DNA of 64,000 bases from Minisyncoccota bacterium (GTDB lineage: Bacteria; Patescibacteriota; Minisyncoccia; Phycocordibacterales; PALSA-1337), in the NCBI GenBank assembly GCA_041666915.1, contig JBAYFZ010000002.1, forward strand, positions 14,771-78,770. The letters run 5' to 3'. The position numbers were made by a program, and so were the translations under genes. The notes under the pieces are model-generated. The model saw only the letters and a program-made list of their open reading frames with translations, made no database searches and was not told the DNA's origin. Each line of letters opens with the position of its first letter. The first letter of the stretch is position 1. Positions 8,824-45,858 of this stretch are shown here, piece by piece.

Positions 8824-9004
8824 GACAGTTGATTAATCTTGATAGTATTTATTAGATTTGATATGCTTCTATTAGAAGTATGCAATAATAACTTATGAGG
8901 CGCTTTGGTGTTCCCTTAGAATATCTAGGGCTTGAGCTAAAGATAACCACCTTGTGAGACGCTACTTCTAACAAAGAACCCGCTAAGGCGGATTTTTTGT
9001 TAGA

Positions 9005-22557: not shown

Positions 22558-23775
22558 CTACATTACATCTACCAACGAATACATAGGTTGAATCATAGAA
22601 ATTGCAAAGAAACCTACGGCCCCTCCTATAACCAATATGAGTATCGGCTCTATTATCGTAGACATGTCTTTGGTTTTCTGATTAACATCATTTTCATAAT
22701 ATTGAGCTACACCCATAAGCATCTCCCCTGTTTTACCGGTCTCTTCACCAACGCTCATCATTTCAATAAAAAAGACTGGGTAATATTTACCAAACTGACC
22801 GAAAGTCTTTGACATCAATTCTCCATTCTTTATTGAAAGAGAAGCTTTTTGTAAAATTCTTTGAAAATGAACATTCTGAACAACGTCTGCAGTAATATTT
22901 ATAGATTCAACAACATCAACCCCAGAACCCAACAATGAAGACATCGTCCTTGCTGTTCTAGCAGTATTAACTTCTTGAACGAGTTCTCCTATAACAGGAA
23001 TCTTAAGAATGGCAGAATGAAATATCTTTTTTCCAGAAGCTTTTTTTGACCACCAGACTAAAGAGCCGATAAGGATCAAAACAAGACCAAAGACGATCAC
23101 TCCTTGATCCCTGATGAGATTGCTTATATTCAAGACTACTTGGGTTGTCATAGGTAACGGAACATTGAGATCTGTAAAAGTCTTGAGCAAAGTAGGAATT
23201 ATAAAGATAAACATCAATACAGCGATAATTATCATTGCTGAAAAAATAACTGCAGGATACATGAGAGCACCACGGATTCTCTTATCCAAGGAATACGAAC
23301 TATCCATCTGACTGGAGACAATCTTCAGAGAATCAGCCAATGTTCCAGACTGTTCTCCGGCATGAACCATTGCGACGAATATCTTTGGAAAAACCTTTGG
23401 GTGTTTACTAAGCGCGTCAGCAAAAGTTATACCTTGATCAATATTCTTCACAAGATCAGCTACGACTTTCTTGAGAGATGCGTTGCGTGTTTGTTTCTCA
23501 AGGACTGCCAAAGCTCTAGAAAGAGCTAGACCAGCTTCCAACATTGCCCCCAAATTACGTGCGAAATTTATTTTCTCAATAGTCTTGACCCTATCAAAAA
23601 TAGATAGAGAAATATTCATATGCAGTCCTCTAGATTCACGCTTTTCTTTGAATTCAACTACTTCATCACCACCTTCTCGTAGAAGTTTGTACAATTCGTA
23701 ACGATCTACAGCATCTCTTTCGCTGTTATATATCTCTCCTGTAGATTTTTTTGCTTTGAAAGTGAAATGGGGCAT
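22558..23775 (-). CDS. pilC: type IV pilus assembly platform protein PilC (GspF family)
   Basis: 405 aa; two T2SS-F repeats and three TM segments. Confidence 0.9.
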   Translation of the reverse strand: MPHFTFKAKKSTGEIYNSERDAVDRYELYKLLREGGDEVVEFKEKRESRGLHMNISLSIFDRVKTIEKINFARNLGAMLEAGLALSRALAVLEKQTRNASLKKVVADLVKNIDQGITFADALSKHPKVFPKIFVAMVHAGEQSGTLADSLKIVSSQMDSSYSLDKRIRGALMYPAVIFSAMIIIAVLMFIFIIPTLLKTFTDLNVPLPMTTQVVLNISNLIRDQGVIVFGLVLILIGSLVWWSKKASGKKIFHSAILKIPVIGELVQEVNTARTARTMSSLLGSGVDVVESINITADVVQNVHFQRILQKASLSIKNGELMSKTFGQFGKYYPVFFIEMMSVGEETGKTGEMLMGVAQYYENDVNQKTKDMSTIIEPILILVIGGAVGFFAISMIQPMYSLVDVM

Positions 23776-23782
23776 TATAGTT

Positions 23783-23820
23783 TAGTGCAAAATTAAAAGT
23801 GCAAAATGAAAAGTGCAAAG
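23783..23820. repeat. tandem AGTGCAAA motifs (three copies) in the pilB-pilC intergenic region
   Basis: tagtgcaaaattaaaagtgcaaaatgaaaagtgcaaag. The same motif forms the arms of the palindrome at 26468..26601 and recurs at about 42745..42775. Confidence 0.5.
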
Positions 23821-23823
23821 TTA

Positions 23824-25572
23824 TTACTCTGAAACGACACGGAGCACTTCTTCAATCGTTGTCATTCCCTGTACACACTTGAATATACCGTCTTCTAACA
23901 TTGTGAGCATTCCTTCTTTCTTGGCCTGAATTTCAATATCATTTGAAGTAGCATTTTTCATTATAAGATCTTTGATAGATTGAGTCATAACCAAGACTTC
24001 GTGGATACCAACACGACTCTTGAAACCATCGTCATCTCCAGCTGGTACAGCTTTCCAGAAATTGATCTTATCCCAAGTGTCGGACGATTTTACTATTTTT
24101 TCTGTCTTCAAATAACCAAGGACTCTGTCTAGATCAACAACTTTTGCCAATTGATTGAATTCATCCTTGGATAACTTGTATTCCTGTTTTGAATCAGTAA
24201 GTTTACGAACCAAACGCTGACCGATAACAATATCCAAAGTAGAAACCAACAAAAATGGCTCAACACCCATATCCAAAAGACGAGGCATCGCTCCTGCTGC
24301 CGAGTTGGTATGCAAAGTAGAAAGAACCAAGTGACCAGTCAAAGCGGCATTGACTCCAAGTGCTGCGGTTTCACCGTCACGGATTTCTCCAACCATGATA
24401 ATATCTGGATCTTGACGGACCAAAGTTCTGATACCTTGTGGAAATGAGAAACCGATCTCTGGACGAACTTGAGTTTGATTGATACGAGCCATCTGGTATT
24501 CAATAGGGTCTTCAATAGTTGAAATATTCACATCTGGAGTATTCAAAATATCCAACATGGTATACAAAGTCGTAGTTTTTCCAGATCCAGTGGGACCTGT
24601 CATGAGTATCATTCCCGTCGTCTTATTCAAAGTTTTATGAATCGCTTCCAAGCCTTCGCCGTGGAAATTCAAATATTCCAAAGTGAATCCGGATATACTT
24701 TCTCTAAGTAAACGCATAACGATCTTTTCACCATAATATGTTGGCAAAATAGAGACACGGAATGAAACTTTTTCTTCATTCATGTCAACTTTGAAACGAC
24801 CGTCTTGAGGTAAACGTTTTTCATCCAATTTTAGATTGGCCAAAACTTTGATACGAGCAGATACCGAAGGACCGGCCTGTTTTGGAAGTACCATCGCATC
24901 ATGTAAAAGTCCATCTATACGATAACGAACCAAGACTTGTTCCTCCATTGGTTCTATATGGATATCGGAAGAATTTTGCAAGATAGCGTGTTTTATCAAA
25001 GTATCAACAATACGCACAACCGGCATATCTTCTGCGATCTTTTTTAAATCAGCTTCTGAGGCAGTATCCCCTTCTTCTTCTGAAATCATCTTGAGTGAAG
25101 CGGTCTCTTTTTGGATCAAATCACCAAATTCAGCCTTGAGACTCTTTTGATACTGAACCAATGCTTCTTTAATAGAATCCGAATCAGTCAAACGAGGTAA
25201 TATTTTCAAATTGACTTTCTTTTTAATGAAATCAATAGCGGGCAAATCGTTGACATCCAACATCGCAACTTCCAAAGCGACATCTGTCTTTTTAAAAGCG
25301 ACAATGTTATGAGCACGAGCAATCGGTTCTGGAATAAGAGAGAGGGTCTCAAAAGGTAATTTTTTACCTTTAAGGTCTACGAAAGGAATACCAAAGACAT
25401 AAGCTTGCATTCTACGGAGATTGTCTGCACTGATCTTGCCTGACGAAATCAATACATCGCCTAAATGCTTTTTCTTTTTCTCGCTTTCTTTCTTTGCATC
25501 TTCAAGGTCATCCTTGGTTACAAGACCAGAATCAAGAATAAATTTATATAATTGGGTATCTTCAACGAACAT
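23824..25572 (-). CDS. pilB: type IV pilus assembly ATPase PilB (GspE family); start placed at the MFVEDTQ Met
   Basis: N-terminal GspE-N region, Walker A TGPTGSGKTTTLY, Asp/His boxes. The longer ORF to 25644 would run into an upstream terminator hairpin. Confidence 0.9.
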   Translation of the reverse strand: MFVEDTQLYKFILDSGLVTKDDLEDAKKESEKKKKHLGDVLISSGKISADNLRRMQAYVFGIPFVDLKGKKLPFETLSLIPEPIARAHNIVAFKKTDVALEVAMLDVNDLPAIDFIKKKVNLKILPRLTDSDSIKEALVQYQKSLKAEFGDLIQKETASLKMISEEEGDTASEADLKKIAEDMPVVRIVDTLIKHAILQNSSDIHIEPMEEQVLVRYRIDGLLHDAMVLPKQAGPSVSARIKVLANLKLDEKRLPQDGRFKVDMNEEKVSFRVSILPTYYGEKIVMRLLRESISGFTLEYLNFHGEGLEAIHKTLNKTTGMILMTGPTGSGKTTTLYTMLDILNTPDVNISTIEDPIEYQMARINQTQVRPEIGFSFPQGIRTLVRQDPDIIMVGEIRDGETAALGVNAALTGHLVLSTLHTNSAAGAMPRLLDMGVEPFLLVSTLDIVIGQRLVRKLTDSKQEYKLSKDEFNQLAKVVDLDRVLGYLKTEKIVKSSDTWDKINFWKAVPAGDDDGFKSRVGIHEVLVMTQSIKDLIMKNATSNDIEIQAKKEGMLTMLEDGIFKCVQGMTTIEEVLRVVSE

Positions 25573-25624
25573 TAGGTAAATTATATCAGATATAAGAGAT
25601 GACTGCTTATGCACAGCTTTGAAT

Positions 25625-25660
25625 AAACGAAAACCCGCAACCATATTTCAGATTGCGGGG
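25625..25660 (-). terminator. rho-independent terminator (cccgcaa-N12-ttgcggg plus T-run on the minus strand) for the 25708..26217 gene
   Basis: Minus strand: ccccgcaatctgaaatatggttgcgggttttcgttt. Identical stem-loop to the terminator at 26618..26654. Confidence 0.7.
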
Positions 25661-25707
25661 AAATTTTGAGTGGTGTTTTCAGGTAACCACTTCATTACCT
25701 TATTATG

Positions 25708-26217
25708 CTAGACCCTAGCCCAGTCAGGAAGATAGAGATCCGGGACAGGACCGTCTTGACCACCTTTTGCAACTCTTGCTTTGATATAATCCTCCAAAGC
25801 ATTAGCTTGAAGCAAATCAAACGCAGTTGCGACGATAACCGTCGTCGCAAGCCACTCAAGAGCTAGGCCACCTGAGATATCAATCTCAAGCGGAGTGCCA
25901 TACCACGCATCCCCCATTGAAGTTCGGCGTAGCGGTATAGACTCAGAAGCAGAGGTTTCACCACTACCAAGTCCGTAGGCAATAATCTTTCCAAGCGTGG
26001 TCGAATTCCGCCTCCCGATAAGATGGAGCACGTTTTGAAAAACGTGTTTAGAGAAATCCTTTACGCAAGAATGTTTTTTTAAATCATCATTAGTGATTTG
26101 GAGCTCACCCATGATGTTCTTCGTCACATTGACGATGTACTCCTGATCCAACCACTTCTGTTGACGGATTCGAGTCGCGTAAAGTGGTAAGGACTTTGTT
26201 TCTGTTAATGTTCTCAT
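25708..26217 (-). CDS. hypothetical protein of unknown function (GC-rich, likely horizontally acquired)
   Basis: 169-aa ORF clearly GC-richer than its neighbours. No family recognised by eye. Flanked by identical terminators. Confidence 0.5.
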   Translation of the reverse strand: MRTLTETKSLPLYATRIRQQKWLDQEYIVNVTKNIMGELQITNDDLKKHSCVKDFSKHVFQNVLHLIGRRNSTTLGKIIAYGLGSGETSASESIPLRRTSMGDAWYGTPLEIDISGGLALEWLATTVIVATAFDLLQANALEDYIKARVAKGGQDGPVPDLYLPDWARV

Positions 26218-26376
26218 ATTTATCTCCTTTCGAGAGATTTCCCATTACCTTTATGGATCATGCTTCCGATTCAATTGTCGATGGACATATTATACTCCTA
26301 TTTAATGACGATGTCAAGCGTTTGTATACGGCTCTACTAAGCCATTAACATAAATAACACGGAAAATTCCTACTCT

Positions 26377-26460
26377 AAATTGCCTCAAATTGACACCTAT
26401 GCTATACTGTTGTCGTTACGTATCTGTTCGCCCACCGGCGAACTTATTTGTTAAAAGGGG
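26377..26460 (+). promoter_or_regulatory. promoter plus short leader hairpin, copy 1 (sigma70-like TTGCCT-17-TATACT followed by gttcgcc-cacc-ggcgaac and a T-rich tract)
   Basis: 84 nt near-identical to 28408..28491 (upstream of nusA). -35 at 26380..26385, -10 at 26403..26408. Confidence 0.55.
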
Positions 26461-26467
26461 CGATGTT

Positions 26468-26601
26468 TAGTGCAAAGTGAAAAGTGCAAAATGCAAAATT
26501 TTAGTTAATGGTTAATAGTTATTATATTCAAATACTATCTAACTCAAAAACTCAATAACTTTTCACTACAACTTTGCATTTTGCACTTTTCACTTTGCAC
26601 T
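26468..26601. repeat. long perfect inverted repeat: 29-nt arms (agtgcaaagtgaaaagtgcaaaatgcaaa) separated by about 75 AT-rich nt
   Basis: Left arm 26468..26497, right arm 26573..26601 as exact reverse complement. Arms are built from AGTGCAAA-type units. Confidence 0.7.
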
Positions 26602-26617
26602 TACAATACAATTTAAT

Positions 26618-26654
26618 AAAAACAAAAACCCGCAACCATATTTCAGATTGCGGG
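26618..26654 (-). terminator. rho-independent terminator for the 26681..27097 gene; identical stem-loop to 25625..25660
   Basis: Minus strand: ccccgcaatctgaaatatggttgcgggtttttgttttt. Confidence 0.7.
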
Positions 26655-26680
26655 GTGTGAAAGCTTGAACTTCCAGTAAG

Positions 26681-27097
26681 TCAGAGTGTGTAAACAACAA
26701 GTTTCTTCTTTGATTGTTCAATTCCCCCAAGGATAGCTTCCACGTCTGCACCTTGCATCCTACCGAAGAATCCGGAACCCATCAGTACGACAGCAATTTC
26801 CTCATCGTCGGGCGCCTCGATTTTATCGAGACATTCCCGAGCGACGCGTGGTGTGTCGTTCCAACCACCCTTATCAAGCGAATGGCAAACCAGAGCATAG
26901 TAAGTCTTCTCACCATCCTTACGTATGAGCACTTCGCCGAGTTGATTTCCACCAGTACGAATAAGTTCCGACCATTTTATTCGCAAAGATACCTGTTCTG
27001 CAAACCCATCGTCATTATCACCCTGAGTGTTGATTGCAAAAGCGATATGCTTTTGTGGCGCCAAGAATATGTCTCCTTTAACTCTATTTACAATCAT
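26681..27097 (-). CDS. macro-domain-like protein (putative ADP-ribose binding/processing); GC-rich
   Basis: 138 aa; VKGDIFLAPQKHIAFAINTQG and VLMGSGFFG loosely match macro-domain GDI...NAAN and G-x-G-x-x-G loops. The plus-strand ORF 26714..27133 is its antisense artefact. Confidence 0.3.
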   Translation of the reverse strand: MIVNRVKGDIFLAPQKHIAFAINTQGDNDDGFAEQVSLRIKWSELIRTGGNQLGEVLIRKDGEKTYYALVCHSLDKGGWNDTPRVARECLDKIEAPDDEEIAVVLMGSGFFGRMQGADVEAILGGIEQSKKKLVVYTL

Positions 27098-27329
27098 TCA
27101 TTTACCCGTCCTTTCTTTTTTATTATAGTTTGACTATAAGAGTAACTCTAAAAGCATGTTTTTATGCCATTAGAACCACTTCTAACAAGCCTCTCAATGA
27201 ACTCATTATTTTTCATAACATATCATCCTACTTCAAACTTGTCGAGTATTTTGTACTAGATGAGTACATGCAATTGATTGTTGAACTCGGGAGAACTGAA
27301 TTCAATAAGTATATTATAAATTAAGACCC

Positions 27330-28307
27330 TTACACTTCACTAATAACTTCAAAACCACTAAAGCTTCCAGTTATAGCGAGACCAATTACAGTATCTGCTA
27401 TATTTTGACTTTTTATTTTTCTGGCCGTTTCATTCAAAGTAGCGCCAGATCCCAGAGCATCGTCTATGAGCAAAATGGTTTTGAACTTCCTAGACTCATC
27501 TAGAATGATTGTGGACTTAGCATTCTCAATACGATCCTCTAGTTTAGTAAGAGTCTTCTGTGGAACAGATATTTCTTTTTTCACCTTTACCAATGAAATG
27601 ACCGGAACAGAAAGATTGAGTTGTCTTTCTATCTCTTTCATAAGCTGTAACTCTCTTTTAACAGTCGGAGGAATATAGCCAATAGCATCTACTGACCATT
27701 TTTTTATGAAAGATTCAATACGTGGCTTTATCTCACTTATCAATTCACGAATAAGTTCCTTGCTCTGACTTTGTTTTGCATAAAGCAAAATTTGACCGAG
27801 TTTTGTCTTACCAAACCTTTCTATACTATAAAAATCCAAATAAAAAACTTCGTCAAGGAATACTTCTTTGAATGTATGTTTAATTTTATATTTACCATCT
27901 ATAAAACCATCTTTTCTATACTCGGAGAATTTCTTGTACGACTGGACGTAATCATTGGCTGTTTTTATAGGATTCTCATTTCTCTTATTGCACCATTCTA
28001 TAAAACCTATAATTCCTTCTTTCCTTTCTCCGCTTGGGGATATGAGAAGAAAATTTTCATTTATAATCTTCTCTGTTTTCTTATCAAAGATGATTTCGGA
28101 AATAACATCCTTTTTTATGTCATTAATAAAATAGTACACTTTTGGAGGTGTACCTCTTTTGTGCACAAGATTTTGTTCCAACAAATTAAAAAGTTGTTTT
28201 CTAACTGCTCTAGTTGTAATACCAAGAAAATCAGCCAGCTCATTACCTGACGCTTGACCTTTATCTTTTATATAATTAATAATTTTTTCTGATGTCTTCT
28301 GGTCCAT
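27330..28307 (-). CDS. winged-HTH plus phosphoribosyltransferase-domain protein (PurR/ComF-like architecture)
   Basis: 325 aa; N-terminal GNELADFLGITTRAVRKQL wHTH. C-terminal ILLIDDALGSGATLNE is a PRTase PRPP-binding motif. Confidence 0.6.
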   Translation of the reverse strand: MDQKTSEKIINYIKDKGQASGNELADFLGITTRAVRKQLFNLLEQNLVHKRGTPPKVYYFINDIKKDVISEIIFDKKTEKIINENFLLISPSGERKEGIIGFIEWCNKRNENPIKTANDYVQSYKKFSEYRKDGFIDGKYKIKHTFKEVFLDEVFYLDFYSIERFGKTKLGQILLYAKQSQSKELIRELISEIKPRIESFIKKWSVDAIGYIPPTVKRELQLMKEIERQLNLSVPVISLVKVKKEISVPQKTLTKLEDRIENAKSTIILDESRKFKTILLIDDALGSGATLNETARKIKSQNIADTVIGLAITGSFSGFEVISEV

Positions 28308-28327
28308 GGAACAAGTATAGCATAAAA

Positions 28328-28356
28328 AGTTCCTAGTTCCTAGTATACTAGGAACT
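28328..28356. promoter_or_regulatory. perfect 22-nt palindrome agttcctagtatactaggaact with an extra tandem half-site, upstream of the HTH-PRTase gene; candidate operator
   Basis: aagttcctagttcctagtatactaggaactt, about 20-50 nt upstream of the minus-strand start at 28307. Confidence 0.45.
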
Positions 28357-28407
28357 TTATGATTCTAAATATACAGAAGATTTTCAAGCCTACACACCAA
28401 GCCGGCA

Positions 28408-28491
28408 AAAATTGCCTCAAATTGACACCTATGCTATACTGTTGTCGTTACGTATCTGTTCGCCCACCGGCGAACTTATTTGTTAAAAGGG
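28408..28491 (+). promoter_or_regulatory. promoter plus leader hairpin, copy 2, directly upstream of nusA
   Basis: Same 84-nt sequence as 26377..26460; nusA ATG at 28523. Confidence 0.6.
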
Positions 28492-28522
28492 TAAAAATTT
28501 AATAAAAACTAAATATAACAAC

Positions 28523-29689
28523 ATGTTTGATCTAAAAGTAATAAACTCCGTAGTACAGCAATTGGAAGAAGAGCGTGGTATTCCCCGCGAAAAGACTCTT
28601 GAAGCCATCTCTATGGCCTTCGCAACAGCCTACAAAAAGGAATACGGCAAAAAAGGACAGATAGTTCGCGCTTCATTTGACCAAAATTCTGGAAGTGTAG
28701 AATTCTGGCAGGTTAAAATTGTAGTTGACCGCAACCAAGTCATCATGGAGGGTGATGAGGAACATCAGGAAAATCTCAAAGATACAGCCTTGGAAGACAT
28801 CAAAATCCGTTTCAATCCAGAACAACACATGTTCATTGAAGACGCTCGCAAAATAAAGAGAGACGTTGTTATTGGTGATGAATTGGTATTTCCTCTAGAA
28901 ACCAAGGCTGACTTCGGCCGTATTGCCGCTCAAACAGCAAAGCAGATTATAATCCAAAAGATTCGTGAGGCTGAAAAAGTCTCTGTTATGAGTGAATATG
29001 GTAAAAAAGAGGGTGACATTGTCGCTGGTATAGTAGAACGCGTAGAACGTGGCGTTGTATATATAGACATGGGACGTGCTGTCGGTATTATTCCTTACGA
29101 GGAGCAGATTCCTAGTGAACGCTGGAAAACTGGAGATCGTATCCGTGCTTATTTGTACGCCGTAGAAGAAACACCAAAAGGCATTGTTTTGAAACTCTCA
29201 CGTGCTCATCCAAAATTCTTGGCAAAACTTTTTGAAACAGAGACTCCTGAAATCGCTAGTGGTGTAGTAGAAATAAAAACTATTGCCCGCGAAGCTGGTT
29301 CACGTTCCAAGGTTGCTGTCATCTCTCATGATGCCCATATAGATCCTATTGGTTCTATGGTTGGACAAAGAGGTGTTCGTGTTACAACCGTTACTAGTGA
29401 ACTCTCTGGTGAAAAAATAGATATCGTAGAATGGAATGAGGATCCTGCTCTGTTTATTGAAGAATCTTTATCTCCTGCTGAGGTTGTCTCTCTTGAACTA
29501 GATGAAAAAGAACATCGTGCAATAGTCACCGTAACTGAAGATGAACAATCTCTAGCTATCGGTAAGGGTGGTCAAAACGTTCGTCTAGCCGCAAAGCTTA
29601 CTGGTTGGAAAATTGATATCAAATCAATTGGTGGAATTGAAGATTTGAAAGTTGGCGGTGAGGACGAAGAAGAGGCTGAAAAGAAATAA
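28523..29689 (+). CDS. nusA: transcription termination/antitermination factor NusA
   Basis: 388 aa; N-terminal NusA domain, S1 and tandem KH domains (KIDIV...GKGGQNVRLAAKLTGWKIDI). Confidence 0.93.
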   Translation: MFDLKVINSVVQQLEEERGIPREKTLEAISMAFATAYKKEYGKKGQIVRASFDQNSGSVEFWQVKIVVDRNQVIMEGDEEHQENLKDTALEDIKIRFNPEQHMFIEDARKIKRDVVIGDELVFPLETKADFGRIAAQTAKQIIIQKIREAEKVSVMSEYGKKEGDIVAGIVERVERGVVYIDMGRAVGIIPYEEQIPSERWKTGDRIRAYLYAVEETPKGIVLKLSRAHPKFLAKLFETETPEIASGVVEIKTIAREAGSRSKVAVISHDAHIDPIGSMVGQRGVRVTTVTSELSGEKIDIVEWNEDPALFIEESLSPAEVVSLELDEKEHRAIVTVTEDEQSLAIGKGGQNVRLAAKLTGWKIDIKSIGGIEDLKVGGEDEEEAEKK

Positions 29690-43658: not shown

Positions 43659-43729
43659 TGCGGGATGGGAGAATCGAACTCCCGACCGATGATTGGAAAT
43701 CAGCTGTTATACCATTTAACTAATCCCGC
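43659..43729 (-). tRNA. tRNA-Gly (anticodon UCC)
   Basis: GCGGGAT acceptor stem; D-arm GTTA/TAAC; anticodon arm GCTGA-TTTCCAA-TCATC (one C-U mismatch); T-arm GGGAG-TTCGATT-CTCCC; discriminator A. No encoded CCA. Confidence 0.7.
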
Positions 43730-43812
43730 ATATGTTGATTGAGAACAAAATCTATACTAGCAATAATATCCACCCGTAACAAGATGTAATGCTATATTTG
43801 TATTTTAAAAAC

Positions 43813-44247
43813 TTATTTACTTACTGACTTATCTTCAGGAGAGACTGCTTCTTTGATCTCATCAACTTCTTTCTTGATCTCTTTTATAGTCGCTTGAATC
43901 TGATGTATCTCTGCTTCCTCTTCTTGAACCTCCCTTTCAGTCTTGTCCGTAGCTTTCTTTTCTTTTTTGAGACCACTCATCACAATACTTTGTCCAATAA
44001 AAGAAGAAACAAAAAGACCTGTTGCAAGAAGTATTATTGTAACGATGATCGCGTTCACTGGTTCATAGAATAACCAGCCCAACCATCCTCCCCTAGCCTG
44101 CAAAATGTCTGCTGTATGCCATACACCGCGCCAGAAAAGCACAATGGCCGTACCTCCGATGAGAGTATAAACTATCGGATACCTGCTCAAATGACCACGT
44201 ACATTATCTTCAAATTTATCAAAGAAATTAACTATTTTTTTTATCAT
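43813..44247 (-). CDS. hypothetical membrane protein; start at MIKKIV
   Basis: Two TM helices. The longer ORF (to 44289) would run through the tRNA-Pro gene. Confidence 0.5.
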   Translation of the reverse strand: MIKKIVNFFDKFEDNVRGHLSRYPIVYTLIGGTAIVLFWRGVWHTADILQARGGWLGWLFYEPVNAIIVTIILLATGLFVSSFIGQSIVMSGLKKEKKATDKTEREVQEEEAEIHQIQATIKEIKKEVDEIKEAVSPEDKSVSK

Positions 44248-44248
44248 G

Positions 44249-44321
44249 TCGGAGCGCCGGGATTCGAACCCGGAGTCGCCTCTTCCCAAAAGAGGAATGT
44301 TAGCCGTTACACCACGCTCCG
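44249..44321 (-). tRNA. tRNA-Pro (anticodon UGG)
   Basis: CGGAGCG acceptor; anticodon arm CCTCT-TTTGGGA-AGAGG; T-arm CCGGG-TTCGAAT-CCCGG. Confidence 0.8.
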
Positions 44322-44343
44322 ATAACTAAACTATCCTAACATA

Positions 44344-44754
44344 TTATAAAATAATATTCTCTATCATTCTTAATTTCGCCATACGATTGGCCATATTCAA
44401 ATAGACGCATATAACGTGAAAACGAAATTCTATTTCAAGTCCTATATGGTTTTCATCCAAATAGGTTTCTACCATACGCCTAATATGCCTAATTTTCAAG
44501 CCATGAACATTATCTTCTGGACGACGAGTATCATTACCAAGATCGTGAAAAGATTGAACGGTAACACTTTTGACTTCAAAAAAATGTAGAATATTGTCTT
44601 TTTGAGCAATAATGTCTATTTCTCCCCAAACCTTTCTATAATTACGATCAACGATAATAAACCCTTTATTTACAAGGAATTTACAGGAAATGTCTTCGCC
44701 CTTATTCCCTGTCAACTTGTTATTAGACTTCCTATTTTGACGTATATTAGCCAT
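44344..44754 (-). CDS. YraN/UPF0102-family endonuclease-like protein
   Basis: 136 aa; KGEDISCKFLVNKGFIIVDRNYRKVWGEIDIIAQKDNILHFFEVKS is the YraN pattern. Confidence 0.65.
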   Translation of the reverse strand: MANIRQNRKSNNKLTGNKGEDISCKFLVNKGFIIVDRNYRKVWGEIDIIAQKDNILHFFEVKSVTVQSFHDLGNDTRRPEDNVHGLKIRHIRRMVETYLDENHIGLEIEFRFHVICVYLNMANRMAKLRMIENIIL

Positions 44755-44938
44755 AAAACCTGTCTTTTATACACCAAATCCACAGGGTTATCCCCAGTTG
44801 TCCATTACTTTTACGATTTTTAGCCGTATTCTTTAGGACTTAGTCTCATATAAGTCCTATGCAAAATTAGATGCGCAATAAAAACGCCTAAAAATATAAG
44901 TTAATTAGAGACAACAATATTTAATAACCTCTTCCCTG

Positions 44939-45009
44939 TGCGGGTAGGGAGAATCGAACTCCCAACTTATCGTTGGCAACGATACGTTTTACCACTAAAC
45001 TATACCCGC
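44939..45009 (-). tRNA. tRNA-Gly (anticodon GCC)
   Basis: GCGGGTA acceptor; anticodon arm TATCG-TTGCCAA-CGATA; T-arm GGGAG-TTCGATT-CTCCC. Confidence 0.8.
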
Positions 45010-45113
45010 TTTGATTACAAACAAGAGTATAACTGTATTAAGTCTTTTTTACAAATTATATCTATACTGTGCTTGCACTACGAAGCAATTGGCTATTAGC
45101 CAATTGCGAAGTA

Positions 45114-45186
45114 GTGCGCTCGGTAGGACTCGAACCTACAACCCCTTGGTCCGAAGCCAAGTGCTCTATCCATTGAGCCACGAGCG
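45114..45186 (-). tRNA. tRNA-Arg (anticodon UCG)
   Basis: GCGCTCG acceptor; D-arm GCTCAATGGATAGAGC; anticodon arm CTTGG-CTTCGGA-CCAAG; T-arm GTAGG-TTCGAGT-CCTAC. Confidence 0.8.
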
Positions 45187-45858
45187 CGTATCTCCATAAT
45201 ACTGTATTAATAGCTTTTGCCAAGCTCTCATAAGTCTGAAGACATAGACATCTGTTATATAAAGACACATACAACCCTTATAATCAGGGTTTTTCTTTAT
45301 AATACGCTTGGTTGGCTTATAAATTGTTCTGTGAAACAAGCTTGGATTTACACCCAATTTACCAGCCCAAAACATTTCTATATTTTCATATCCAGGAACT
45401 CTATGTATAAAAAGACGACATTTTATCCTATCGCTATCAACCTTTAGATATTTCTGAATCCAGTTATACATAAAAACAACCATGTCTGGATCAGAATTCA
45501 CAAATTGAAAATTATTGTGTCTTTTGGCACCTTCAGCCCAATATAAAGTAATCCCAATCAAAAACCGATGATCGGTCTGCATTTCCTTAAAAATCTTTTT
45601 TGCATCTTCAAAAGCCACTATTTCCCTATTGAGTCTTGACTGCCGATTGGTCGCGGCCGACTTCAACATACCCTTTCCTCTCCTATCAACTAACCTTTTA
45701 GCAATACCCTCTTTTTCTTCTCTAGAAAATTCCAAATCTTTGAACCAATATGACAATAATCCCCTTGATACGGGTACTATTTGTGTTATTTCAGAGTAAG
45801 TCATACCCTGTTTTCGTAGCTCTATTGCTTTATTTTTTTCTATTAATCTTGCTGTCAT
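45166..45858 (-). CDS. HTH plus possible LAGLIDADG-like endonuclease-domain protein; 3' end overlaps tRNA-Arg by about 20 nt
   Basis: 230 aa; N-terminal ELRKQGMTYSEITQ HTH. LIGITLYWAEGAKRHNNFQFVNSD is reminiscent of a LAGLIDADG block. Weak. Confidence 0.4.
   Translation of the reverse strand: MTARLIEKNKAIELRKQGMTYSEITQIVPVSRGLLSYWFKDLEFSREEKEGIAKRLVDRRGKGMLKSAATNRQSRLNREIVAFEDAKKIFKEMQTDHRFLIGITLYWAEGAKRHNNFQFVNSDPDMVVFMYNWIQKYLKVDSDRIKCRLFIHRVPGYENIEMFWAGKLGVNPSLFHRTIYKPTKRIIKKNPDYKGCMCLYITDVYVFRLMRAWQKLLIQYYGDTRSWLNG

What the first reader, a model, noticed from the sequence alone, without database searches (positions are those of the whole stretch)
25625..27100. GC-rich two-gene cassette bracketed by identical terminators: unknown protein plus macro-domain-like protein
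Genes 25708..26217 and 26681..27097 (both minus) are visibly GC-richer than the flanking pil and nusA regions. Each is followed by the same terminator (cccgcaaccatatttcagattgcggg plus T-run). Between them lie a duplicated nusA-type promoter/leader and a 134-nt perfect palindrome. The 138-aa protein looks macro-domain-like (GDI...AINTQG...VLMGSGFFG). This may be an ADP-ribosylation-related toxin/antitoxin or defence pair (DarT/DarG-like logic), but the 169-aa partner shows no recognisable family.
Basis: inference. Interest (0 to 1): 0.6.

Follow-up and report, generated by a model that had tools for sequence, protein, structure and literature searches.

The report
Orphan macrodomain gene in recombination hotspot
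Between the pilus gene pilB and nusA of a Patescibacteria genome lies a strain-specific patch of three unrelated single genes: a small ADP-ribose-type "macro" protein, an unknown helical protein with a structured RNA leader, and a phosphoribosyltransferase; the two flagged genes are not a toxin-antitoxin pair.

Summary
The sequence features are mostly real. Two minus-strand genes (169 aa, 138 aa) are about 2 SD GC-richer than the window. Each is followed by the same 26-nt terminator hairpin. Between them lie an exact 83-nt copy of the nusA promoter/leader and a long hairpin, which is imperfect, not perfect.

The 138-aa protein is confidently a macrodomain (pLDDT 95; top PDB matches TARG1, Poa1p, viral macrodomains and DarG). 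It belongs to an unannotated family seen only in Patescibacteria, with an invariant Cys next to His near the TARG1/DarG catalytic Lys position.

The DarT/DarG-like pairing is not supported:
- The 169-aa protein is predicted all-helical, with no known relatives.
- Each gene has its own promoter-like site and terminator.
- In 13 other genomic contexts the two families never co-occur.

The closest relative has pilB directly next to nusA. This gap is a recurrent insertion hotspot. The repeat pattern T-g169-L-T-macro/PRTase-L-nusA is a recombination scar.

New here: the 169-aa family carries a conserved 5' leader of about 125 nt with strong covariation and a hairpin over the ribosome-binding site; it has no Rfam match.

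An adjacent wHTH-PRTase (PsyrT/ShosT-like) is the only plausible functional partner for the macro gene. That link is untested.

The parts
23824..25572 (-). pilB (type IV pilus ATPase), left boundary of the variable patch. The true start is MFVEDTQLYKF at 25572, not the upstream ATG at 25644.
   Evidence: PilB of relatives L012 and L013 starts at the equivalent Met, with 82-83% identity over 582 aa.
25625..25660 (-). T1: intrinsic terminator of the 169-aa gene (hairpin 25634-25659 plus T-run). It is the left copy of the 36-nt direct repeat.
25708..26217 (-). g169: 169-aa protein of unknown function. It is predicted helical and belongs to a rare family found in Patescibacteria.
26215..26356 (-). 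Structured 5' leader RNA of g169, ending in a hairpin (ATCTCTCGAAAGGAGAT) that occludes the Shine-Dalgarno sequence. In the window copy the P1 loop is expanded and P3 is degenerate.
   Evidence: The covariance model R1, built only from other loci, hits here at 50.9 bits, E 9e-12. Covariation is shown. No Rfam match.
26289..26317 (-). Perfect TTGACA-17-TATAAT promoter-like site inside the leader region of g169.
   Evidence: 12/12 match. Whether this site or a weaker site further upstream is used is not known.
26377..26459 (+). L1: exact 83-nt copy of the nusA promoter plus leader hairpin (GTTCGCCCACCGGCGAAC followed by a T-rich tract). It points towards the macro gene in antisense.
26469..26601 (.). 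Imperfect 133-nt palindrome: 29-nt perfect outer arms built of AGTGCAAA units with a 14-nt period. It is inserted in the copied leader.
26610..26623 (+). Tail of the copied nusA leader (AATTTAATAAAAAC). It abuts T2, and this is the novel recombination joint.
   Evidence: (repeat family D4); read directly from the sequence
26620..26655 (-). T2: second copy of the terminator (hairpin 26629-26654). It is the first terminator downstream of both the PRTase and macro genes.
26681..27097 (-). 138-aa stand-alone macrodomain protein.
27098..27329 (-). AT-rich (31% GC) spacer with a weak promoter-like site at 27245-27217. No terminator was detected in it.
27330..28307 (-). 325-aa winged-helix plus phosphoribosyltransferase protein (PsyrT C-terminal-like, ShosT-like). 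The PRPP loop ILLIDDALGSGAT is intact.
28335..28356 (.). Perfect 22-bp palindrome AGTTCCTAGTATACTAGGAACT overlapping the PRTase promoter-like -10 box. It is a candidate operator for the protein's own wHTH domain.
   Evidence: the operator role is inference
28409..28522 (+). L2: native nusA promoter and leader with the attenuator-like hairpin at 28458-28475.
   Evidence: The hairpin is conserved in L012 and L013.
28523..29689 (+). nusA, right boundary of the variable patch.

Best explanation
The interval between pilB (start 25572) and nusA (start 28523) is a strain-specific patch of accessory genes about 2.95 kb long. It sits in a conserved, recurrently used insertion hotspot between two divergent housekeeping genes of a Candidatus Paceibacterota (Patescibacteria) genome. 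It holds three functionally independent genes, all on the minus strand.

1. g169. An uncharacterised helical protein. Its expression is governed by its own structured leader RNA, which ends in a hairpin over the ribosome-binding site.

2. The 138-aa macrodomain. It stands alone and keeps the three ADP-ribose-binding signatures of the fold: GD(I/V)F, AVNxxGxNxxGFAG, and LMGSGxxG. It most likely binds an ADP-ribose-type ligand and acts alone as an eraser or hydrolase of ADP-ribosyl, or related ribose-phosphate, adducts or metabolites. The binding and catalysis steps are inferred, not shown.

3. A wHTH-PRTase related to the toxin modules of PsyrTA, ShosTA and type III retrons.

The repeat pattern T1-g169-L1-T2-macro-PRTase-L2-nusA contains exactly one novel joint: the end of the leader fused to the start of the terminator, at the microhomology AATAAA(A)AC. 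This is the scar expected if two alternative cargo alleles of the same hotspot were joined in tandem. Routes include a tandem duplication followed by replacement of one copy, or Campbell-type or unequal recombination. The identical terminators and the duplicated nusA promoter are therefore by-products of recombination, not signs of a functional pair.
For: Hotspot:
- The closest relative L012 (NusA 92% identical) has pilB and nusA 214 bp apart, with no terminator T and none of the three genes.
- L013 (89%) has a different gene there, of the Bro-N family.
- Across 13 relatives the gap is 100-270 bp in 6 and 0.57-5.2 kb in 7.

Independence of the genes:
- There is no co-occurrence in 13 other contexts.
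- Each gene has its own promoter-like site and terminator.
- Compositions differ: GC 0.46, 0.46 and 0.33.

Macrodomain:
- pLDDT 95.
- Macrodomains dominate the Foldseek hits against the PDB.
- The family profile aligns end to end with alphavirus nsP3 macrodomain motifs.
- The family has at least 369 clusters, all about 137 aa, with no Pfam annotation, and every cluster that carries a source name is from Patescibacteria.

g169 leader:
- 34 pairs, 17 of them with compensatory changes among 6 sequences. Shuffled controls give 8.1 +/- 1.7 and slid controls give 1-4.
- The covariance model finds the window copy at E 9e-12 and nothing else in the window or in 561 kb of relatives.
- The last 55 nt of the leader are 69-89% identical where the CDS is 56-67%.

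Repeats:
-.
- The joint is confirmed by an independent contig.

PRTase:
- PADLOC PsyrT 6.9e-17 and ShosT 2e-8; Pfam HTH_24 and Pribosyltran.
Against: - No biochemical function was tested. The macro family fails the Pfam Macro HMM, and sequence-only matches to solved macrodomains are not significant (E 0.4-1.3).
- Catalytic residues cannot be assigned.
- No terminator lies between the PRTase and macro genes. They could be co-transcribed, so their independence is not proven from the PRTase side.
- The order of the recombination events cannot be reconstructed from one genome.
- Macro-family genes in L096 and L001 are also flanked by long direct repeats. A dedicated mobility mechanism has therefore not been excluded.
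Confidence: 0.62

Rival explanations
1. One reading: g169 and the macro protein are a DarT/DarG-like ADP-ribosylation toxin-antitoxin or defence pair.
For: - The genes are adjacent, on the same strand, and have similar elevated GC.
- The macro fold is confirmed, and DarG macrodomains are among the structural hits (5m3i, 5m3e).
Against: - g169 is predicted all-helical, with no beta-rich ART core.
- It has no hit to DUF4433 or any Pfam, PADLOC or PDB entry.
- The genes are 463 bp apart, with a terminator after each and an unrelated duplicated promoter and hairpin between them.
- There is no co-occurrence in 13 other contexts.
- The macro protein has no DarG C-terminal domain.
Confidence: 0.03
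2. The real pair is the wHTH-PRTase (toxin, as in ShosT/PsyrT) plus the macro gene downstream of it. The macro protein would act as an antidote that hydrolyses or sequesters the ribose-phosphate product or adduct made by the PRTase. This would be a new toxin-antitoxin or defence architecture.
For: - The gene order is toxin first, then partner, as the T-then-A naming of ShosTA and PsyrTA suggests (my own recollection; not checked).
- No terminator lies between the two genes; T2 ends both.
- Both lie in the same repeat-bounded block and stay together on the independent contig L092.
- PADLOC gives PsyrT 6.9e-17 and ShosT 2e-8, and the PRPP loop is intact.
- PRTase domains of ShosTA and PsyrTA are toxic effectors (PMC12961424).
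Against: - None of the 5 other macro contexts has a wHTH-PRTase neighbour. L094/L095 only have a ComF-like PRTase 1.8 kb away, with other genes between.
- Composition is very different: GC 0.456 against 0.328, GC3 0.41 against 0.28.
- A 232-bp spacer with its own promoter-like site separates the genes.
- The macro protein matches no PADLOC model.
- The known antitoxins of these systems are DprA-like, not macrodomains.
Confidence: 0.15
3. The genes are cassettes of a dedicated site-specific mobile system (integron-like or hairpin-targeting). The repeated terminator hairpin or the 133-nt palindrome would be the recombination site.
For: - Macro genes elsewhere are also bracketed by long repeats of a terminator hairpin: L096 has 54 nt perfect plus 43 nt.
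- L001 has 19-21-nt inverted repeats and a 95-nt duplicated target; L094 has a duplicated tRNA 3' end nearby.
- Both families are solitary genes in unrelated contexts.
Against: - No recombinase or transposase gene lies in the patch.
- The repeats are locus-specific: T is absent from all other loci.
- The second repeat is simply the local nusA leader.
- The 95-nt repeat in L001 is only 72% identical. That fits homology-assisted recombination between diverged genomes better than a target-site duplication.
- The palindrome is single-copy, and its ends lack the integron GTTRRRY core (read directly from the sequence).
Confidence: 0.07
4. The tandem arrangement is a metagenome assembly chimera of two strain variants of the hotspot.
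For: - The pattern T-A-L-T-B-L is what mis-joining of two alleles would look like.
- The Logan contig L092 breaks at both repeats.
Against: - The L-to-T joint shares only about 4-8 nt of microhomology, too little for a k-mer assembler to bridge.
- An independent JGI contig (L093) reads through macro, T2 and into the palindrome at 100% identity.
Confidence: 0.03

Closest known systems
TARG1/OARD1 (C6orf130) and yeast Poa1p, compact stand-alone macrodomain hydrolases
   Same: - Size (138 aa against about 150-170 aa) and single-domain architecture.
- They are among the best structural matches (E about 5e-7 to 3e-6, TM up to 0.76).
- The layout GD(I/L)F ... GEV ... YY.L ... G.G ...
   Different: - About 20% identity, and no Pfam Macro hit.
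- TARG1's catalytic Lys84 region reads Val-Cys71-His72 here (Cys invariant, His at least 90%).
- Asp125 is not conserved.
- The family was seen only in Patescibacteria.
DarG macrodomain of the DarTG toxin-antitoxin system
   Same: Macro fold; 5m3e and 5m3i are among the hits (TM 0.60-0.75).
   Different: - No C-terminal DarT-binding domain.
- No DarT (DUF4433) neighbour.
- The neighbour g169 is all-helical and is not linked to the macro family in other genomes.
Viral MacroD-type macrodomains (alphavirus nsP3, coronavirus X domain)
   Same: - The best Foldseek hit is the HCoV-229E X domain.
- The family profile aligns VRGDI / AFAVNTxGxNxxGFAG / LMGSG with VRGDI / VNAANxxGxxGGGVCG / LLSTG of nsP3.
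   Different: - The sequence match is not significant on its own (E 0.4-1.3).
- The Gly-rich GGG loop is replaced by N-D/S-G-F-A.
- It is a cellular, stand-alone protein.
ShosTA and PsyrTA (PRTase toxin plus DprA-like antitoxin), and retron type III PRTase effectors
   Same: The neighbouring 325-aa protein matches PADLOC PsyrT (6.9e-17, over profile positions 364-682 of 689), ShosT (2e-8) and PRTase_III-A. The PRTase toxin role is described in PMC12961424.
   Different: - No RecQ-like helicase half.
- No DprA-like partner.
- No reverse transcriptase or msr/msd RNA.
- The downstream gene is a macrodomain that matches none of the partner models.
Riboswitch-like or autoregulatory 5' leaders that occlude the Shine-Dalgarno sequence
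   Same: The g169 leader has a multi-helix junction supported by covariation, followed by a hairpin that pairs the SD sequence (GGAG) with ATCTC.
   Different: - No match to any of the 4227 Rfam 15 families.
- The ligand or binding factor is unknown.
- It is associated with only one uncharacterised protein family.
Tandem-duplication or homology-facilitated illegitimate recombination scars at intergenic hotspots
   Same: - Two interleaved repeat families with a single novel joint at a short microhomology.
- The insertion is absent from the nearest relative.
   Different: - The two repeat-bounded units carry different cargo, so at least two events are needed.
- The mechanism is inferred only.

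Membership tests
Macrodomain superfamily | Three-layer alpha/beta/alpha macro fold | tested here: met
   AlphaFold2 pLDDT 95.1, pTM 0.89. Foldseek against the PDB gives 114 hits at E <= 0.001; macrodomains dominate the listed hits, with probability 1.0 and TM 0.6-0.76.
Macrodomain superfamily | Match to the curated sequence model (Pfam PF01661 Macro or related models) | tested here: not met
   No Macro hit at E <= 1 in Pfam or NCBIfam. None of the listed family members carries a Pfam annotation.
Macrodomain superfamily | Conserved ADP-ribose-binding loops: an N-terminal Asp, the Asn-containing strand with a Gly-rich loop, and the G-x-G phosphate loop | tested here: inconclusive
   G8, D9, F11, N23, G31-F32-A33-G34 and G107-S108-G109 are invariant or at least 90% conserved. 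They align with the corresponding nsP3 motifs. The alignment is not statistically significant, and no ligand docking or binding was done.
Macrodomain superfamily | ADP-ribose binding or hydrolase activity | not testable with these tools
   Needs biochemistry.
DarTG toxin-antitoxin system | Adjacent DarT (DUF4433, ART fold) toxin gene | tested here: not met
   g169 has no Pfam or PADLOC hit, is predicted all-helical, and has no fold match.
DarTG toxin-antitoxin system | DarG architecture: macrodomain plus a C-terminal DarT-binding domain | tested here: not met
   The protein is 138 aa, a single domain.
DarTG toxin-antitoxin system | Conserved co-occurrence and operon organisation of the two genes | tested here: not met
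   No co-occurrence in 5 other macro contexts and 8 other g169 contexts. In the window, each gene has its own terminator and promoter-like site.
ShosTA / PsyrTA | PRTase-domain toxin | tested here: met
   The 325-aa neighbour matches PADLOC PsyrT 6.9e-17 and ShosT 2e-8, and Pfam Pribosyltran 3.2e-6. Its PRPP loop is intact.
ShosTA / PsyrTA | DprA-like (ShosA/PsyrA) partner. For PsyrT, also an N-terminal RecQ-like helicase. | tested here: not met
   The macro and g169 proteins match no PADLOC model. The macro fold is macro, not DprA. The 325-aa protein covers only profile positions 364-682 of PsyrT.
Integron gene cassette | attC site after each cassette and a linked IntI integrase | tested here: not met
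   No recombinase ORF lies in 25573-28522. The 36-nt repeat is too short for attC. The 133-nt palindrome is single-copy and lacks the GTTRRRY cores.
Known RNA families (Rfam 15) | Covariance-model match of the g169 leader, the palindrome or the nusA leader | tested here: not met
   Nothing at gathering score. Only chance-level hits at E <= 10.

The most novel reading that the evidence does not exclude
The leader of about 125-140 nt upstream of the g169 family (window 26215-26356, minus strand) is a new class of riboswitch-like or protein-sensing regulatory RNA. So far it has been seen only in Patescibacteria. It would control translation of an uncharacterised helical protein through a hairpin that sequesters the Shine-Dalgarno sequence. 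A separate possibility is that the Cys-His macrodomain is the antidote of the adjacent PRTase, which would define a new toxin-antitoxin chemistry (probability about 0.15).
Probability: 0.35. Interest if true: 0.65.

Novelty: new member of a known kind. Interest (0 to 1): 0.42.

Why it matters
- It removes a tempting but wrong annotation (a DarTG-like defence pair). The features that suggested a unit, namely identical terminators and a duplicated promoter, turn out to be recombination scars at a conserved pilB|nusA insertion hotspot. This is a caution for cassette-style inference from repeats.
- It identifies an unannotated, compact macrodomain family seen only in Patescibacteria. The family has an invariant Cys next to His close to where TARG1 and DarG place their catalytic Lys. 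This is a concrete target for asking what ADP-ribose signalling or detoxification does in ultra-small episymbiotic bacteria.
- It turns up a covariation-supported structured leader RNA with no Rfam counterpart, tied to one orphan protein family. This gives a testable handle on the function of both the RNA and the protein.

Tried and rejected
- g169 gave nothing in Pfam, NCBIfam, PADLOC or PHROGs. A deep HMM search of 1.84 billion representatives found 56 relatives. A Pfam scan of 47 aligned family members gave nothing, nor did a PDB profile search or fold searches.
- I suspected a conserved small ORF of about 75 aa upstream of both families, because several loci have a 228-nt ORF call. The translations are unrelated, so this was rejected.
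- I looked for conserved non-coding sequence around macro genes and found none across loci.
- Neither family, nor the PRTase, was found in IMG/VR viral contigs. The macro protein was also absent from the phage and plasmid collections, and the PRTase from the plasmid collection.
- The terminator T is absent from all fetched loci, so it is not a shared mobile-element end.
- The metagenome scan for g169 relatives returned only 4 loci, which limits the RNA alignment to 6-7 distinct sequences.
This leaves the PRTase-macro rival open.
- The retron idea was rejected because there is no RT gene in the inserted block.
Full report
**Source and layout.** The exact proteins of the window are annotated in NCBI as consecutive hypothetical or wHTH proteins of a Candidatus Paceibacterota MAG, on a 184,762-bp contig. 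In order, the region reads:
- pilC 22558-23775 (-) and pilB 23824-25572 (-);
- terminator T1, 25634-25659;
- g169, 25708-26217 (-), with its 5' leader at 26215-26356 (-);
- a copy of the nusA promoter/leader (L1), 26377-26459 (+);
- a long imperfect palindrome, 26469-26601;
- the tail of the leader copy, 26610-26623;
- terminator T2, 26629-26654;
- the macro gene, 26681-27097 (-);
- a 232-bp AT-rich spacer;
- a wHTH-PRTase gene, 27330-28307 (-);
- the native nusA promoter/leader (L2), 28409-28522 (+);
- nusA, 28523-29689 (+).

**Checking the observation.** Both ORFs exist and have conserved homologues.

Their GC is 0.461 and 0.456. The mean for ORFs of at least 150 aa in the window is 0.381 (sd 0.036). 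About 4% of 450-nt windows are as GC-rich. GC3 is 0.435 and 0.41, against 0.27-0.34 for the neighbours. The deviation is real but moderate. Homologues in other genomes are also GC-richer than their own loci (0.575 vs 0.522, 0.594 vs 0.492, 0.492 vs 0.445). The bias is therefore partly a property of these gene families.

The 26-nt hairpin occurs exactly twice, where none is expected by chance, and each copy has a T-run on the gene strand. The nusA promoter/leader is duplicated exactly over 83 nt.

The "134-nt perfect palindrome" is overstated. Of 133 positions, 102 are self-complementary, with 29-nt perfect outer arms. The fold is still far better than shuffles (z = -9.6).

Independent assemblies support the arrangement. 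L093 (JGI) is 100% identical to 27498-26479 and crosses T2 into the palindrome. L092 (Logan) is 100% identical to 28438-26626 and ends exactly in the two repeats.

**The 138-aa protein.** Sequence libraries give nothing. With a 30-sequence alignment, AlphaFold2 gives pLDDT 95.1 and pTM 0.89.

Foldseek against the PDB returns 114 hits at E <= 0.001. Macrodomains dominate the 50 best listed: HCoV-229E X domain, TARG1, VEEV, CHIKV and Getah nsP3, Poa1p and DarG. TM is 0.6-0.76 and probability 1.0. The macro fold is therefore confirmed.

The family profile aligns end to end with alphavirus nsP3 macrodomains. It matches VRGDI, the Asn strand plus Gly-rich loop (AFAVNTxGxNxxGFAG against VNAANxxGxxGGGVCG), and the phosphate loop (LMGSG against LLSTG). 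The sequence E-values alone are not significant.

It puts the invariant Cys71 and near-invariant His72 at the position of the catalytic Lys84.

A profile search finds at least 369 clusters. All are about 135-144 aa, none has a Pfam annotation, and every named one comes from Patescibacteria.

**The 169-aa protein.**
- Its twelve close homologues are all from metagenomes or named Patescibacteria MAGs.
- A full HMM scan of 1.84 billion representatives finds only 56 relatives, all 105-200 aa apart from one 980-aa repeat-type outlier.
- A Pfam scan of 47 aligned family members gave no domain, and there are no PDB sequence relatives.
- The model (pLDDT 71) is all-helical, and it has no fold match in the PDB or BFVD.
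- It is therefore not a DarT or ART-type protein.

**Are the two genes a pair?** No.
- Homologues of the macro gene sit in five unrelated neighbourhoods (L001, L005, L094, L096, L097).
- Homologues of g169 sit in eight others (L008, L098-L101, L103, L105, L106).
- tblastn of all three window proteins against every fetched locus shows no co-occurrence.
- In the window the genes are 463 bp apart. Each has a promoter-like site and its own terminator, and unrelated DNA lies between them.
- Neither family was found in IMG/VR viral contigs; the macro protein was also absent from the phage and plasmid collections.

**What the repeats mean.** NusA-based synteny shows that the closest relative, L012 (92% NusA, 83% PilB identity), has pilB and nusA only 214 bp apart. 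It has no T hairpin and none of the three genes. L013 (89%) has a Bro-N gene there. Across 13 relatives the gap is 100-270 bp in six and 0.57-5.2 kb in seven, with varied cargo. The gap is a recurrent insertion hotspot.

The native nusA leader hairpin (GTTCGCCC.ACCGGCG.AC followed by a T-rich tract) is conserved in L012 and L013. L2 is therefore the original and L1 the copy.

The order T1-g169-L1-T2-macro-PRTase-L2 contains one novel joint: leader tail ...TTAATAAAAAC fused to AAAAACCCGC... Compare ...TGAATAAACGAAAACCCGC upstream of T1. This is a microhomology joint of the kind left by a tandem duplication or a Campbell-type or unequal exchange. Because the two repeat-bounded units carry different cargo, I infer that two alternative alleles of the hotspot were joined, or that one copy of a duplication was later replaced. 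This step is inference.

Macro genes elsewhere also sit between long repeats of local sequence. L096 has 54 nt perfect plus 43 nt. L001 has a 95-nt, 72%-identical duplicate of the 5' end of the downstream aminotransferase gene. This fits acquisition by recombination. It does not exclude a dedicated mechanism.

**A structured leader RNA for g169 (found in passing, followed up).** The 50-odd nt before the g169 start codon are more conserved than the CDS (69-89% against 56-67% identity). In six other loci a leader of about 125 nt follows a good sigma-70-type promoter.

RNAalifold predicts the following:
- a P1 hairpin;
- a long-range helix (TCATTA/TAATGG, with TCGTCA/TGACGA and TCCTTA/TAAGGA variants) that encloses two hairpins;
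- a terminal hairpin that pairs ATCTC with the GGAG Shine-Dalgarno sequence.

In total there are 34 pairs, 17 of them with compensatory changes.

In the controls, 96.5% of cells are paired, against 84% when shuffled and 37-47% when slid. Seventeen pairs co-vary, against 8.1 +/- 1.7 (shuffled) and 1-4 (slid). The structure was derived from the same six sequences, so these numbers are optimistic.

A covariance model built without the window hits 26215-26356 (-) at 50.9 bits, E 9e-12. It finds nothing else in the window or in 561 kb of related genomes, and elsewhere it hits only upstream of g169 homologues. There is no Rfam match.

The window copy has an expanded P1 and a degenerate P3. A perfect TTGACA-17-TATAAT lies inside it. 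On its own it does not fold better than shuffles, so it may be a partly decayed or re-wired version.

**The third gene.** The 325-aa protein has an N-terminal winged helix and a C-terminal PRTase with an intact PRPP loop. It matches PADLOC PsyrT (6.9e-17, C-terminal half of the profile), ShosT (2e-8) and the retron type III-A PRTase. PRTase domains are the toxic effectors of ShosTA and PsyrTA (PMC12961424).

No terminator is detected between this gene and the macro gene. T2 is the first terminator after both. A PRTase-macro operon, with the macro protein as antidote, therefore cannot be excluded.

Against this:
- none of the five other macro contexts has such a neighbour;
- the two genes differ strongly in composition;
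- the macro protein matches no partner model;
- there is no helicase, DprA-like or RT gene in the patch.

I rate this rival at about 0.15.

**Verdict.** The DarTG-like pairing is not supported.

The best-supported picture is a recombination-built patch of independent accessory genes at a conserved hotspot. The macro protein most likely acts alone as a binder or hydrolase of ADP-ribose-type adducts; this is inferred from the fold and motifs, and its substrate is unknown.

Novelty is at the level of new members of known kinds: an unannotated macrodomain family from Patescibacteria, and a candidate new cis-regulatory RNA.

Noticed in passing
window 26215-26356 (-); L008 5875-6003, L098 3873-4003, L099 3888-4003, L101 114-239, L103 160-287, L105 1527-1652: A conserved structured 5' leader RNA specific to the g169 gene family: a multi-helix junction plus a hairpin over the Shine-Dalgarno sequence. 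It has 17 covarying pairs among 6 sequences and no Rfam match. It is a candidate new cis-regulatory RNA.
   Followed up: yes
window 28458-28475 (and its copy at 26426-26443); L012 about 8893-8911; L013 about 8954-8971: A terminator-like hairpin (GTTCGCCCACCGGCGAAC followed by a T-rich tract) in the nusA leader, conserved in the two closest relatives. It looks like a transcription attenuator, possibly for NusA autoregulation.
   Followed up: partly
window 23784-23819 and 26469-26497 / 26573-26601: The motif AGTGCAAA repeats with a 14-nt period: three tandem copies just upstream of pilC, and two in each arm of the palindrome. There are 10 copies in the window against 3.1 expected. It may be a regulator binding site or a repeated -35-like element.
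   Followed up: partly
window 28335-28356: A perfect 22-bp palindrome AGTTCCTAGTATACTAGGAACT overlaps the promoter-like -10 box of the wHTH-PRTase gene. It is a candidate operator for autoregulation by the protein's own winged-helix domain.
   Followed up: no
window 26377-26459 (+): The duplicated nusA promoter points into the macro gene in antisense. It could produce an antisense transcript if the copied attenuator and the palindrome are read through.
   Followed up: no
L096 3344-3438 and 4476-4571; L001 5623-5717 and 6706-6800; L094 3552-3638 and 3730-3816: Macro-family genes in other genomes also sit between, or next to, long direct repeats of local sequence: a 54-nt perfect terminator repeat plus 43 nt (L096), a 72%-identical copy of the 5' end of the downstream gene (L001), and a duplicated tRNA 3' end (L094).
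   Followed up: partly
L012-L051, pilB to nusA interval: The divergent pilB|nusA arrangement is conserved in this clade. The gap varies from 100 bp to 5.2 kb, with cargo that includes pilin-like proteins, a Bro-N protein (L013) and, judged from its sequence only, a tyrosine-recombinase-like ORF (L029).
   Followed up: yes
L098 4040-4454: The g169 homologue there is split into two reading frames (probably a frameshift or pseudogene), yet its leader RNA is intact (125 bits).
   Followed up: no
window 8874-8969 (+): A full-length match to the Rfam family DUF3800-V RNA (RF02964): 76 bits against a gathering score of 37.
   Followed up: no
window 43659-45187 (-): A cluster of four tRNA genes.
   Followed up: no
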